Sequence record: EU863408
Source of the DNA: Escherichia phage JSE
Strand: one strand, 5' to 3'
DNA length: 64,000 nt
Shown: piece by piece, positions 1,616 to 4,407 of the stretch
How the letters are laid out: each line of letters opens with the position of its first letter
Numbering within the stretch: the first letter of the stretch is position 1
Notes under the pieces: generated by a model
The model's database searches: none
Told to the model about the DNA's origin: nothing
The model's input: the letters and a program-made list of their open reading frames with translations, nothing else
Made by a program: the position numbers and the translations under genes

Positions 1616-1870
1616 ATGACAGAAGACATTTTGTTAAAACTCTATGATCGTCTGGATAACGAATTAGCAACATTGCGGGGTGAAGTTCTCTATTTGTCTA
1701 AATGCAATACAGATCTGCTTAAGCAGATTGCAGAAAGGGATGATCAAATAAAATCCCTTTCAGGTGCATTACGTGATCGCGACAAGGCATTAGAGATTTT
1801 ACAGCGTGTTACCAATAAGGAAGAATTAAAAGACTTCTTACATGGTTATGCTCATGCCATCGATCTATAA
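1616..1870 (+). CDS. hypothetical small coiled-coil protein (inserted relative to T4 order)
   Basis: 84 aa; GAGGA 7 nt upstream of ATG; opposite strand to flanking genes. Confidence 0.5.
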   Translation: MTEDILLKLYDRLDNELATLRGEVLYLSKCNTDLLKQIAERDDQIKSLSGALRDRDKALEILQRVTNKEELKDFLHGYAHAIDL

Positions 1871-1871
1871 T

Positions 1872-1896
1872 AAAAAAGCCCGTCATTGACGGGCTT
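1872..1896. terminator. bidirectional intrinsic terminator between convergent genes
   Basis: hairpin GCCCGTC-att-GACGGGC flanked by A6 on plus strand (T6 on minus). Confidence 0.5.
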
Positions 1897-1900
1897 AATG

Positions 1901-3043
1901 TTAACTATTGATCATATCAATGACGTTTTGTAGCTCTGATATGGATAGCGTTTCTGTATATCCATCTGGCATATCTTCTTTACTAACATAGAAACCTTTA
2001 TACTTTTTCTTTATTGCACATTCCATAGAAAGAGCATCATCACCGTTATCGTATTTTTTATAAAATGTCAACTCATGACGAAATATAGATTTTGAAGATT
2101 GGTTTTGTATTCTTTTTATTAATCTGTTGTTGGTTATACCAAATTTTATAGCAACCGCAACATCTTCTTTGTATAAAGTTTGTACATAAATGTATGCAGG
2201 TTTATTCCTCTTAAATCCATGATTGCTACACATAGGGCAACCGCTATTTTTTGATACGTAGTCTCCTAAGTTTGGCGTAAATTCATGTCCGCTACTACAA
2301 CGCATTACCAATTTTGTTTTTAGCATTCCTCTATACTCACCGCCAACAAAATCAACAAATGTATCACCTTTATCAATCGCCTTATCTGTTATTTCCTTTA
2401 CTACTTGCTCAGTTGACTTCTTGTTTTTACCTGAACATAGTTTACATCTAGATCCATTAACTAAAAACGAGTGACCGGATGCAGTATATTCATGTCCATT
2501 AGGGCATTTAACTAAGATATTTCTTTCATAAAAATCTTTATAATCAGACACATAGCCAATGACTTCGTGGTCTTTTTGGTTATTCCTCATCTCTGTTAGC
2601 AACTCTTCGCTATTCCAGCGTTTACCCTTAACGCAGAGACAACCATGACCTTGATAAAGATATATAAATTTCTTAGTAAAGTTTTTGTTGCAATCAGGAC
2701 AATGCATTAGTAATTCTGTCATTTGACCTGTATATCCTTTAGGAATATCGATCAATGTGTATTTTCCGCATATTGTCTTTAATGCATCATCTATTCTTTC
2801 TTTGGTCCAGCGTAAGCGACCAGTGCATTCATGACATTTTACACCCAGTCTAAGAGTATCTAAACTAAATATAGTTGACGTATGTCCTTTATCACATTTT
2901 AACTTAAATCTAGTATCCTTTGCGTTGGTGTATTCTCCGACTAGACCATACCATTCATAACAACATGGGATATGTTCTTTTACCTTCTCTAGATATACAC
3001 CGAACGGTCTAGGAACTGAATTGGGTTTTCTTTCTTTAGTCAT
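1901..3043 (-). CDS. Zn-ribbon repeat protein with C-terminal T5orf172 / GIY-YIG-like domain
   Basis: 380 aa; four repeats of C-x2-GH...C-x-x-C; C-terminus PAYIYVQ...AIKFGITNNRLIKR resembles the T5orf172 motif. Confidence 0.5.
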   Translation of the reverse strand: MTKERKPNSVPRPFGVYLEKVKEHIPCCYEWYGLVGEYTNAKDTRFKLKCDKGHTSTIFSLDTLRLGVKCHECTGRLRWTKERIDDALKTICGKYTLIDIPKGYTGQMTELLMHCPDCNKNFTKKFIYLYQGHGCLCVKGKRWNSEELLTEMRNNQKDHEVIGYVSDYKDFYERNILVKCPNGHEYTASGHSFLVNGSRCKLCSGKNKKSTEQVVKEITDKAIDKGDTFVDFVGGEYRGMLKTKLVMRCSSGHEFTPNLGDYVSKNSGCPMCSNHGFKRNKPAYIYVQTLYKEDVAVAIKFGITNNRLIKRIQNQSSKSIFRHELTFYKKYDNGDDALSMECAIKKKYKGFYVSKEDMPDGYTETLSISELQNVIDMINS

Positions 3044-3065
3044 ATTTTTATATCCTGTAAATTAA

Positions 3066-3092
3066 AGCGCCGTCACCAGCGGCGCTATTTTT
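3066..3092. terminator. hairpin between gene 2 and the Zn-ribbon gene
   Basis: AGCGCCG-tcaccag-CGGCGCT followed by ATTTTTAT. Confidence 0.4.
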
Positions 3093-3099
3093 ATAATCA

Positions 3100-3846
3100 T
3101 TAAAACAATTTCCACACCTTACGAGCATCATATTTCTTGTCTTTGCTCATAAACTGGTAGGTCGGAAGATACACAACCGTGCTCCAATCTTTTGGTGCGA
3201 TCTCAATCAGTTTTGTTTGGATGTGTCCAGGCAAATATGCTTTGATCATGTGGTCTGCGCCTCTCATACCTTTAACATCACTCCATTTAATTTTTAAACG
3301 AGTTTTATTACTAAGAGTAGGTGTACTCGCGTATTGTCGCAACAACGCTTCTAAGAACTGCTGGCGAGCTTTAGGTGGCGCATAGTGCAAGTTCAAACCT
3401 AGCATAATCTCGTTTCCCGCTTTAGATGTACCAAATCCTAGACAGATAATCAAGGGGTATCGGTCAAAGAATGGCAAAGAATCCCGATATTTTGGGTTAT
3501 ACGCATAAGTATAGATCCGTCCCACTTGTGGTTTTACTACCTGATGACCTTTTACACCATCCTTGATGGTCTTCATAAACCACTCCTGTGATTTTTCTTT
3601 AGGACGACTCTTTGATACAGCACGCATAGACGCACGAAAATCATTAATCATCATCATTGCGCGTTGCTGCTTATTGAGACCCTTTGCACCTTTCCCTTTT
3701 AGTTTTTCAACTTCTATTGCTGTTTTAATTTCGCTGGCATAACGAGACATACTTTTAGTGAAAGTCGCATAGGCTATTCCCTTAGAATCTGCAAATGCTT
3801 TAGCTGTCATGCCTTTGGCTTTTGCTTTCGCAAATTCTACACCCAA
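3100..3846 (-). CDS. 2: DNA end protector protein (gp2-like)
   Basis: 248 aa basic protein; position between 3 and 4. Confidence 0.75.
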   Translation of the reverse strand: MGVEFAKAKAKGMTAKAFADSKGIAYATFTKSMSRYASEIKTAIEVEKLKGKGAKGLNKQQRAMMMINDFRASMRAVSKSRPKEKSQEWFMKTIKDGVKGHQVVKPQVGRIYTYAYNPKYRDSLPFFDRYPLIICLGFGTSKAGNEIMLGLNLHYAPPKARQQFLEALLRQYASTPTLSNKTRLKIKWSDVKGMRGADHMIKAYLPGHIQTKLIEIAPKDWSTVVYLPTYQFMSKDKKYDARKVWKLF

Positions 3847-3933
3847 TTCGACCCACTGTTTAGACTTTCGTTTTTGGGGTAGACGGCTTTTCGTCTTCTG
3901 TGATTATTTCAAATACGCTCATAATATTATCCT

Positions 3934-4407
3934 CTATTTGTTAAGCCCTTTAAAGCCAAACACTTTCTTTAATGCATGTTCGGTGATGATCTTAAACTCC
4001 ATGTTATGCTTTTGGCATAATTTCACGGCAGCTAACCATTTTTCAGTATTTTTTGTGTATGTCCATACTTCATGCATATATCGTTGCTTTGTCTTCGCGG
4101 TCATTCTTTTTGGCTTTTCCGGTGGCCTTGTCTCTTTAGCTGGTTTAACTTCCCATAAATGCTCCTTGCCATCATCAAACTTAACGTAAAAATCCATAAA
4201 GTATCTGTGTCTTTTTCCGTCTGTTGATGACTCATAAGGAATTACTACGGTCTCAGATCCCCATTTTGCAACTCTAGGATTGCGGTCTAGCCACTGCATG
4301 ATCCATCTTTCCCAGCTTGAACGGTATGTGATCTTACGTATATCCCCTTTATACTTTTCCTTATTCTCAGGAACATACTTGCCCTTATAAGTGTTAGATC
4401 CTCCCAT
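3934..4407 (-). CDS. 4: head completion protein (gp4-like)
   Basis: 157 aa; YKGD..TYRS.WE...W signature recalled from T4 gp4. Confidence 0.8.
   Translation of the reverse strand: MGGSNTYKGKYVPENKEKYKGDIRKITYRSSWERWIMQWLDRNPRVAKWGSETVVIPYESSTDGKRHRYFMDFYVKFDDGKEHLWEVKPAKETRPPEKPKRMTAKTKQRYMHEVWTYTKNTEKWLAAVKLCQKHNMEFKIITEHALKKVFGFKGLNK

What the first reader, a model, noticed from the sequence alone, without database searches (positions are those of the whole stretch)
1616..3043. Zn-ribbon-repeat protein with a T5orf172/GIY-YIG-like C-terminus inserted between genes 3 and 2
Genes 3 and 2 are adjacent in T4. Here they are separated by an oppositely oriented 84-aa coiled-coil gene and a 380-aa protein with four Cys/His zinc-ribbon-like repeats followed by a segment matching the T5orf172 (GIY-YIG superfamily) signature (AYIYVQ...IKFGITNNRLIKR). 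This domain order is the reverse of classical GIY-YIG homing endonucleases, suggesting an uncharacterised mobile or DNA-targeting protein.
Basis: partly seen in the sequence, partly recalled or inferred. Interest (0 to 1): 0.5.

Follow-up and report, generated by a model that had tools for sequence, protein, structure and literature searches.

The report
Zinc-finger homing endonuclease gene beside gene 2
This is a selfish "homing endonuclease" gene of an already described class (zinc-finger DNA-binding repeats plus a GIY-YIG-type nuclease domain), present in only a few RB49-like coliphages, and it arrived together with a foreign piece of the neighbouring essential gene 2.

Summary
A 380-aa ORF (1901-3043, minus strand) has four Cys/His zinc modules and a C-terminal domain carrying AYIYVQ…KFGITN…R…E.

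- The 84-aa gene is not part of any insert. It is RB49 ORF130 and is present in all relatives.
- The "reversed" domain order is not new. It is the published architecture of CapR/DUF4379-T5orf172 homing endonuclease genes (HEGs) of ICP1, T5 and other phages.

Domain evidence:
- Pfam calls CapR (46.6 bits) and DUF4379 (33.9 bits) above threshold.
- T5orf172 falls just below threshold (17.3-19.7 bits against a cutoff of 20).
- The Tyr, Arg and Glu expected of a GIY-YIG active site are invariant in homologues.

Mobility evidence among 57 Krischvirus records:
- 42 have the empty junction.
- 3 carry this gene.
- 11 are interrupted at the same base. The one examined (Phi1) carries a 28%-identical paralogue there.
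- About 490 nt of adjacent gene 2 is only ~72% identical to relatives, then abruptly ~100%.

Verdict: a free-standing HEG acquired by recombination. It is a new member of a known kind and of modest interest. Nuclease activity and the cleavage target were not tested.

The parts
1901..3043 (-). Free-standing homing endonuclease gene (380 aa) with four zinc-finger modules and a C-terminal GIY-YIG/T5orf172-like domain. 1901-1903 is the stop codon.
   Evidence: ORF. phrog_681 'endonuclease' 2.5e-80. Pfam CapR 46.6 bits and DUF4379 33.9 bits. 98-99.7% identical copies only in G37-3, AV108, PTE-Eco09 and one ENA contig. GC 32-35% against ~40% in the flanks.
2216..3007 (-). Predicted DNA-binding region: four tandem ~65-aa CapR/DUF4379-type zinc modules. 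Residues ~13-78, 79-142, 143-209 and 210-276 correspond to nt 2810-3007, 2618-2809, 2417-2617 and 2216-2416.
   Evidence: The self-alignment of the four segments shares the Cys/His ligands and the aromatic 'GEY' strand. Pfam reports 4 CapR stretches. The full-length AlphaFold model has mean pLDDT 79.2, with lower-confidence stretches near the module boundaries, and pTM only 0.34, i.e. beads on a string. CapR's CxxC…CxC cysteines are required for DNA binding (PMC8096241).
1904..2215 (-). C-terminal catalytic-type domain (residues ~277-380) of GIY-YIG superfamily fold, close to T5orf172/MUG113. Conserved residues: Y286, K300-F301-G302-I303-T304-N305, R311, E341, K345, G361-Y362-T363-E364-T365.
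3066..3086 (-). Terminator-like GC hairpin between the gene 2 stop (3100-3102) and the HEG start (3043). It is a diverged second copy of the hairpin at 1876-1896.
   Evidence: Terminator scan. Alignment of the two hairpins with RB49 and JK32. Annotated as a terminator in G37-3.
1876..1896 (.). Hairpin terminator shared with HEG-less relatives. The left border of the insertion follows it directly: homology with RB49 ends at 1903.
   Evidence: The RB49 empty-junction probe breaks at the same base in all occupied genomes.
3100..3593 (-). 3' ~490 nt of gene 2 (DNA end protector, last 164 codons), of foreign origin. This is the co-conversion or recombination tract that travels with the HEG.
   Evidence: 56-86% identity per 50-nt window to RB49, Phi1 and MIZ6, switching to ~100% at ~3594. 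≥99.8% identical only in the three HEG+ phages; next best is JK32 at 78.8%, and the other Krischviruses are at ~71-72%. Of 164 codons, 63 are identical, 67 differ synonymously and 34 differ non-synonymously.
1616..1870 (+). 84-aa coiled-coil ORF, the homologue of RB49 ORF130. This is context only and is not part of the mobile element.
   Evidence: phrog_17832 2.1e-57. Present at the same place in HEG-less RB49, MIZ6 and JK32.

Best explanation
The 380-aa gene is a free-standing homing endonuclease gene of the CapR/DUF4379-zinc-finger plus T5orf172-like (GIY-YIG superfamily) class. It sits in the intergenic spot just downstream of gene 2 in an RB49-like (Krischvirus) coliphage.

Proposed mechanism, with each step marked as shown or inferred:
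1. Inferred: the four zinc modules act as beads on a string and read a long, asymmetric DNA site.
2. Inferred: the C-terminal GIY-YIG-type domain (Tyr286, Arg311, Glu341) cuts nearby, most probably inside or next to the 3' part of gene 2 of HEG-less co-infecting relatives.
3. Partly shown, partly inferred: the break is repaired from the HEG-carrying genome, which copies in the HEG, its upstream hairpin and a stretch of the donor's gene 2. The outcome is shown. This lineage carries the HEG plus ~490 nt of a diverged gene 2 allele, with sharp borders at 1903/1904 and ~3594.
4. Inferred: the diverged allele is what makes the carrier immune to its own enzyme.
5. Inferred: expression is probably by read-through from the gene 4-gene 2 transcript across the hairpin. 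No exact T4-type late promoter lies upstream.
For: Architecture and family:
- Pfam CapR and DUF4379 are above threshold, and phrog_681 'endonuclease' scores 2.5e-80.
- The protein is homologous along its length to T5 ORF141 (E 4e-31).
- The C-terminal domain alone matches ICP1 'putative homing endonuclease' tcgB (3e-6) and 441 phage records.
- This is the architecture described in PMC10448857 and PMC8096241.

Nuclease domain:
- The model has pLDDT 93.9 and its best PDB matches are GIY-YIG nucleases.
- Y, R and E are invariant across diverse homologues.
- T5orf172, MUG113 and GIY-YIG are the only Pfam families that recur.
- A T5orf172 enzyme cleaves DNA in vitro, and mutating its Glu kills it (PMC8263062).

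Mobility:
- The junction is empty in 42 of 57 Krischvirus records. This gene occupies it in 3. Eleven records are interrupted at the identical base; in Phi1, the one examined, a 28%-identical paralogue sits there.
- GC is 32-35% against 40% in the flanks.
- The foreign gene 2 tract has an abrupt border and is found only together with the HEG.
- Two other HEG insertions in this neighbourhood also have diverged adjacent sequence: Phi1 (~100 nt of gene 2) and MIZ6 (~200 nt of gene 4).
Against: - No cleavage or homing was tested. The target site is unknown and cannot be read from sequence.
- The Pfam T5orf172 score is below the gathering threshold.
- A PDB sequence-profile search found nothing.
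- No donor lineage carrying the same gene 2 allele was found. A single recombination with a diverged phage, without any help from the endonuclease, would therefore leave the same footprint.
- No recognisable own promoter was found.
Confidence: 0.75

Rival explanations
1. Domesticated or repurposed HEG relative. The protein no longer homes. Instead it serves the phage as a sequence-specific DNA binder or repressor (like the satellite protein CapR) or as a weapon against competitors or satellites (like ICP1 Odn).
For: CapR itself is a stand-alone zinc module derived from this HEG family and acts as a repressor (PMC8096241). Odn is a T5orf172 nuclease used for defence rather than homing (PMC8263062). 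No target site could be identified here.
Against: - The full nuclease-type domain with invariant Tyr/Arg/Glu is retained, unlike CapR.
- Sporadic presence (3 of 57), low GC and a linked foreign flank are the pattern of a selfish insert, not of a fixed useful gene.
- Marker exclusion of competitors is in any case the same biochemical activity as homing.
Confidence: 0.12
2. Passive cargo. The gene and the gene 2 segment were picked up once by ordinary homologous recombination with a diverged phage. The protein is inactive or decaying, and the polymorphism among relatives reflects that single event.
For: All four known copies are 98-99.7% identical and lie in one narrow sub-lineage. The donor was not found. 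T4-type phages recombine very efficiently.
Against: - The ORF is intact, with all zinc ligands and catalytic-type residues preserved.
- In Phi1 the same base is independently occupied by a different paralogue; ten further records are interrupted at that base but were not examined.
- Two other HEG types occupy neighbouring junctions in relatives, and those of Phi1 and MIZ6 have diverged adjacent sequence. This points to nuclease-driven events at this locus.
Confidence: 0.1
3. The C-terminal domain is not a nuclease but a second DNA-binding domain (an older prediction for T5orf172 from its association with Bro-N/KilA-N). The protein would then be a transcription factor.
For: T5orf172 was once predicted to bind DNA (discussed in PMC8096241). 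The Pfam match is sub-threshold.
Against: GIY-YIG fold and catalytic residue pattern. Experimental nuclease activity of a T5orf172 protein that depends on the equivalent Glu (PMC8263062).
Confidence: 0.03

Closest known systems
CapR/DUF723/DUF4379-T5orf172 homing endonuclease genes of vibriophage ICP1, T5-like phages and others (Barth, Dunham & Seed 2023, PMC10448857; Netter et al. 2021, PMC8096241)
   Same: - N-terminal array of repeated Cys-rich zinc modules followed by a C-terminal T5orf172-type domain.
- A free-standing gene next to an essential gene.
- Sporadic distribution, with paralogues that differ in their DNA-binding modules.
- Direct sequence homology: T5 ORF141 at E 4e-31, and ICP1 tcgB through the C-terminal domain.
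   Different: - The host phage is a T4-type Straboviridae (Krischvirus). The main text of PMC10448857 does not mention Krischvirus, Tevenvirinae or Straboviridae and notes that T4 itself has none.
- There are four modules, three of them with a C-x3-H…C-x2-C ligand set instead of CxxC…CxC.
- The C-terminal domain is a divergent sub-type that the Pfam T5orf172 model scores just under threshold, as it does for T5 ORF141.
ICP1 Odn (Gp88), origin-directed nuclease (PMC8263062)
   Same: C-terminal T5orf172 domain with catalytic Arg and Glu. The DNA-binding domain is N-terminal, i.e. the 'reversed' order. This is the only relative of the class found here with nuclease activity shown in vitro.
   Different: Odn's DNA-binding part is a RepA_N domain captured from a satellite. 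Odn is used for anti-satellite defence rather than homing. It has no zinc modules.
T4 free-standing GIY-YIG endonucleases (SegA-G) and I-TevI
   Same: Same catalytic superfamily. Same lifestyle: an intergenic, free-standing gene in a T4-type genome, a cleavage site at a distance in a neighbouring gene, co-conversion of flanking markers, and marker exclusion. (From my own knowledge: SegG/gene 32, Liu et al. 2003, which appears in the reference list of PMC10448857.)
   Different: In Seg proteins and I-TevI the catalytic domain is N-terminal and the DNA-binding part (NUMOD, zinc finger, helix-turn-helix) is C-terminal. Here the order is the opposite, and the DNA-binding modules are unrelated CapR-type repeats.
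PLE CapR, capsid-operon repressor (PMC8096241)
   Same: The zinc module is the same Pfam family (PF21817). The cysteines are needed for DNA binding.
   Different: CapR is a single module without a nuclease domain and acts as a repressor.

Membership tests
Pfam PF21817 CapR homology domain / PF14311 DUF4379 (treble-clef zinc modules) | Score above the Pfam gathering threshold | tested here: met
   CapR 46.6 bits against 24.2, in 4 stretches. DUF4379 33.9 bits against 24.5. All 26 aligned homologues hit CapR.
Pfam PF21817 CapR homology domain / PF14311 DUF4379 (treble-clef zinc modules) | Two pairs of zinc ligands (CxxC … CxC) about 20-26 residues apart | tested here: met
   Repeat 2 has C115-x2-C118…C135-x-C137. 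Repeats 1, 3 and 4 have C-x3-H…C-x2-C. Zinc binding itself was not tested.
Pfam PF10544 T5orf172 | Score above the Pfam gathering threshold (20 bits) | tested here: not met
   17.3 bits for the whole protein and 19.7 bits for the isolated domain. Only 7 of 20 diverse homologous domains give any T5orf172 hit, while 11 hit the sister family MUG113. T5 ORF141, a clear homologue, is not called either.
GIY-YIG nuclease superfamily | β-β-α-β-α core fold | tested here: met
GIY-YIG nuclease superfamily | Conserved Tyr in strand 1 ('GIY'), (Y/F)-G in strand 2 ('YIG'), catalytic Arg in helix 1 and metal-binding Glu in helix 2 | tested here: met
   Y286, F301-G302, R311 and E341 are invariant or nearly so in alignments A3 and A5, and they fall on the corresponding secondary-structure elements. 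Residue-by-residue superposition on I-TevI or SLX1 was not available, so the equivalence is inferred.
GIY-YIG nuclease superfamily | Mg2+-dependent DNA cleavage | not testable with these tools
   Needs purified protein.
Zinc-finger-T5orf172 homing endonuclease genes (Barth et al. 2023) | N-terminal repeated CapR/DUF723/DUF4379 modules plus a C-terminal T5orf172-type domain | tested here: met
   Description of the class in PMC10448857.
Zinc-finger-T5orf172 homing endonuclease genes (Barth et al. 2023) | Presence/absence polymorphism at a fixed site among near-identical genomes, next to an essential gene | tested here: met
   42 records empty, 3 with this gene, and 11 interrupted at the same base, of 57 records. 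The neighbour is gene 2, the DNA end protector.
Zinc-finger-T5orf172 homing endonuclease genes (Barth et al. 2023) | Cleaves the HEG-less allele and is copied into it (homing) | not testable with these tools
   There is only the indirect footprint: a ~490-nt foreign gene 2 tract linked to the gene.
Classical GIY-YIG homing endonucleases (I-TevI, Seg proteins) | N-terminal catalytic domain, with C-terminal NUMOD or helix-turn-helix DNA-binding domains | tested here: not met
   The catalytic-type domain is at residues ~277-380, and there were no NUMOD hits. By contrast, the MIZ6 HEG at the gene 4/53 junction does have NUMOD3.

The most novel reading that the evidence does not exclude
This may be the first tractable E. 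coli model for T5orf172-class homing. Natural HEG+ (G37-3, AV108, PTE-Eco09) and HEG- (RB49) coliphages exist that are about 92% (gene 2 side) to 98% (gene 3 side) identical across the flanking 5 kb. Two 28%-identical paralogues compete for the very same base downstream of gene 2. The enzyme would cut within gene 2 and drive replacement of the C-terminal 164 codons of the DNA end protector gp2, the anti-RecBCD protein, by a foreign allele. A selfish nuclease would thus be reshaping an essential host-interaction protein and acting as a marker-exclusion weapon between Krischviruses.
Probability: 0.35. Interest if true: 0.45.

Novelty: new member of a known kind. Interest (0 to 1): 0.25.

Why it matters
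- It fixes the annotation. The gene is 'hypothetical protein' in G37-3, AV108 and PTE-Eco09.
- It documents the zinc-finger/T5orf172-type HEG class in T4-type coliphages.
- It gives a clean natural example of a HEG linked to a ~490-nt allele replacement in an essential gene.
- The ORF130/gene 2 junction and its neighbours form a hot spot used by at least four different HEGs. This makes the locus useful for experiments on homing, on target specificity of modular zinc arrays and on mosaicism in T4-like phages.
- It does not reveal a new kind of system.

Tried and rejected
- Foldseek of the full-length model against the PDB gave only meaningless matches, because the model is beads on a string with pTM 0.34. 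I therefore modelled the C-terminal domain alone.
- PDB sequence-profile searches with the full-length and the C-terminal alignments found nothing relevant.
- NCBIfam has no model for the protein.
- The afdb50 fold library was not available.
- The search for the donor of the HEG and of the foreign gene 2 tract failed:
  - IMG/VR protein-pattern scan: none.
  - Exact hairpin-2 patterns in IMG/VR and metagenomes: none, or one hit.
  - The single metagenome hit, L009, shares only the 27-nt hairpin and is unrelated.
- There is no paralogue of the gene elsewhere in the 64-kb window.
- There is no exact T4 late-promoter motif (TATAAATA) upstream of the gene. Sigma-70-like hits are no more frequent than in shuffles.
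- RNA folding of the region upstream of the start codon is not significantly more stable than shuffles (z = -1.8), so I make no claim of RBS sequestration.
- I rejected the idea that the 84-aa coiled-coil ORF is part of the element, because it is conserved in all HEG-less relatives.

Full report
**What is there**

The window is a Krischvirus, an RB49-like T4-type coliphage. Its first 5 kb are 99.0-99.4% identical to phages vB_EcoM_G37-3, AV108 and PTE-Eco09. Over the parts they share, they are about 95% identical to RB49 and some 50 other records.

The gene order is:
- dNMP kinase (163-819, -)
- gp3 (835-1425, -)
- an 84-aa ORF (1616-1870, +)
- a 380-aa ORF (1901-3043, -)
- gp2 DNA end protector (3100-~3921, -)
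- gp4 (3934-4407, -)
- gp53 and gp5 (+)

These assignments rest.

**What is and is not inserted**

RB49 has the 84-aa ORF (its ORF130) followed directly by the 3' end of gene 2. MIZ6 and JK32 are the same. The 84-aa gene is therefore a conserved Krischvirus gene (phrog_17832), not part of an insert.

Relative to RB49:
- Homology stops at window 1903, just after a shared terminator hairpin (1876-1896).
- Homology resumes within gene 2.
- The extra DNA is the 380-aa gene plus a 56-nt spacer. The spacer contains a second, diverged copy of the terminator hairpin at 3066-3086.

**The protein**

Residues ~13-276 form four ~65-aa repeats. Each has a helix, a β-hairpin with an aromatic 'GEY'-like strand, and two ligand pairs. 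The pairs are C-x3-H…C-x2-C in repeats 1, 3 and 4, and C-x2-C…C-x-C in repeat 2.

Pfam assigns the repeats to the CapR homology domain (46.6 bits, cutoff 24.2, four stretches) and to DUF4379 (33.9 bits, cutoff 24.5). PHROGs places the whole protein in phrog_681 'endonuclease' (2.5e-80).

The full-length AlphaFold model has a mean pLDDT of 79, dipping near the module boundaries, and a pTM of only 0.34. That means independent beads on a string.

**The C-terminal domain**

- 17.3 bits for the protein
- 19.7 bits for the isolated domain
- cutoff 20 bits

I therefore tested the assignment in three other ways.

1. Pfam on homologues. Among 20 diverse homologous C-terminal domains, the only Pfam families that recur are MUG113 (11), T5orf172 (7) and GIY-YIG (4). 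By my own knowledge these three belong to the same Pfam clan.
2. Fold. An AlphaFold model of the domain is confident (pLDDT 93.9, pTM 0.85) with β-β-α-β-α topology.
   - Five further GIY-YIG structures appear lower down: PD-T4-3, EF2693, I-TevI, R.Eco29kI and UvrC.
3. Residues. Those expected of a GIY-YIG active site are invariant or nearly so in the family: Y286, F301-G302, R311 and E341, plus a family-specific G-Y-T-E-T motif.

In BFVD the closest structures are phage proteins named 'CapR homology domain-containing', 'homing endonuclease' or 'GIY-YIG domain-containing'.

My conclusion is that this is a GIY-YIG-superfamily domain of the T5orf172/MUG113 branch. It is a divergent sub-type that the Pfam T5orf172 model narrowly misses. 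The same happens for its clear homologue T5 ORF141.

**Comparison with what is known**

The 'reversed' order, with DNA-binding modules first and the GIY-YIG-type domain last, is not new.
- Netter et al. 2021 (PMC8096241) showed that the satellite repressor CapR is a zinc module homologous to the N-termini of ICP1 putative HEGs with C-terminal T5orf172 domains. They also showed that its four cysteines are needed for DNA binding.
- Barth, Dunham & Seed 2023 (PMC10448857) found at least one CapR, DUF723 or DUF4379-type zinc module (printed once as DUF4397 in the paper), often repeated, in 200 of 229 T5orf172 HEGs. They called these beads on a string.
- Barth et al. 2021 (PMC8263062) purified a T5orf172 protein (Odn). 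They showed sequence-directed DNA cleavage that was abolished by mutating the conserved Glu.

The protein here is directly homologous to members of that class:
- T5 ORF141: 28% identity, E 4e-31.
- ICP1 tcgB 'putative homing endonuclease', through the C-terminal domain alone: E 3e-6.
- Full-length tblastn hits in 558 phage records.

Many homologues share an almost identical C-terminal ~75 residues while their zinc arrays differ. This is the domain shuffling already described.

**Evidence for mobility**

Site occupancy. A probe across the empty RB49 junction matches 57 Krischvirus records:
- In 42 the junction is contiguous.
- In 3 (G37-3, AV108, PTE-Eco09) it is interrupted by this gene.
- In 11 it is interrupted at the same base (query position 149-153).
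- One record starts at the site.

I examined one of the 11, Phi1. It carries a different gene there: a 343-aa paralogue that is 28% identical and CapR-positive. ECD7's RefSeq record annotates an 'endonuclease' at the site. The rest I did not inspect.

Copies. One 2.3-kb ENA contig carries the same gene in the same context at 98% identity. No other close copy exists in the protein database. The next relatives are ≤32% identical.

Composition. The gene has 32-35% GC against ~40% around it.

Flanking tract. This is the most telling evidence.
- The 3' ~490 nt of gene 2 adjoining the insert (3100-3593) is only 56-86% identical per 50-nt window to RB49, Phi1 and MIZ6.
- Identity then jumps to ~100% at about 3594 and stays there through gene 4.
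- The left flank is 98-99% identical right up to the junction.
- The divergent tract occurs at ≥99.8% identity only in the three HEG-carrying phages. The next best is JK32 at 78.8%, and the other Krischviruses are at ~71-72%.
- Of its 164 codons, 67 differ synonymously and 34 non-synonymously. It is therefore a genuinely old, foreign allele. Its C-terminus 'KLF' resembles JK32. It is not a recently mutated one.

Neighbouring HEGs. The Phi1-type HEG is accompanied by ~100 nt of diverged gene 2. The NUMOD3 HEG of MIZ6, between genes 4 and 53, is accompanied by ~200 nt of diverged gene 4. AV108 carries an additional HNH_3/AP2 HEG after gene 3. This 4-kb stretch is thus a HEG hot spot.

**Mechanism proposed**

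What is shown: the architecture, the fold, the conserved residues, the presence/absence polymorphism, and the linked foreign flank.

What is inferred:
- The zinc array recognises a site in HEG-less genomes.
- The GIY-YIG-type domain cuts in or near the 3' part of gene 2.
- Recombinational repair copies the HEG plus donor flank.
- The diverged gene 2 allele protects the carrier from its own enzyme.
- Expression occurs by read-through across the hairpin. I found no exact T4-type late promoter upstream.

The same footprint could result from a single ordinary recombination with a diverged phage. I could not find the donor, so homing activity remains untested.

**Verdict**

This is a real, correctly located gene. 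It is a member of an already described HEG class and shows a clean natural signature of acquisition with a co-converted flank. It is a new member of a known kind, of modest interest. Its main value is as an E. coli-tractable model for T5orf172-type homing and for correcting 'hypothetical protein' annotations.

Noticed in passing
window 3880 (gene 2, minus strand; context CCGTCT[A]CCCCAAAAA): The window has one extra base in codon ~15 of gene 2 relative to RB49, AV108 and Phi1. The annotated start (ATG at 3920-3922) therefore runs into a stop after 20 codons. The long ORF (3100-3846) begins only at an internal TTG. In G37-3 gene 2 is intact (3100-3921). This is either a sequencing or assembly error, or a genuine frameshift in the DNA end protector gene.
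   Followed up: partly
L004 (AV108) 1456-1989; L003 (MIZ6) 3207-3902; L002 (Phi1) 1900-2931: The gene 3 - gene 53 stretch is a hot spot for different homing endonuclease genes in relatives. AV108 has an HNH_3+AP2 gene after gene 3. MIZ6 has a NUMOD3 gene between genes 4 and 53. Phi1 has a 343-aa CapR-type paralogue at exactly the same base as the window's gene, and ten further records are interrupted at that base. The Phi1 and MIZ6 inserts have a short diverged tract in the adjacent essential gene.
   Followed up: partly
proteins P0002-P0031 (alignment A3, columns ~545-624): Many homologues with quite different zinc-finger arrays share a nearly identical C-terminal ~75 residues (…KFDHEIFYELTLQDGQKILELENKIKEAMKGKTSYISKEDMPDGYTETVAPSELSTIMYIVKSFEKELTA). 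This suggests gene conversion or module swapping among paralogues. The window's protein carries a distinct variant of this segment.
   Followed up: no
window 3934-4407 (-), gp4 head completion protein: Strong Pfam match to the TnsA-like endonuclease N-terminal domain (PF08722, 75.8 bits). From my own recollection this agrees with T4 gp4 being named a head completion nuclease, so it is probably already known.
   Followed up: no
window 3100-3846 (-), residues 1-50 of the listed gene 2 ORF: The N-terminal part of gp2 matches a separate PHROG annotated as an HTH DNA-binding protein (phrog_32288, 6.6e-18). The rest matches the DNA end protector family (phrog_429).
   Followed up: no
window 3043-3100 (-): The motif TATAAAAATA occurs twice in the 56-nt spacer between gene 2 and the endonuclease gene, once before the hairpin and once overlapping the start codon. 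It is one insertion away from the T4 late-promoter box TATAAATA. Its significance is unknown.
   Followed up: no
L009 6723-6749 (metagenome contig Ga0207773_100818): The only metagenome match to the hairpin-2 sequence is a 27-nt coincidence in an unrelated contig. It has no bearing on the finding.
   Followed up: yes
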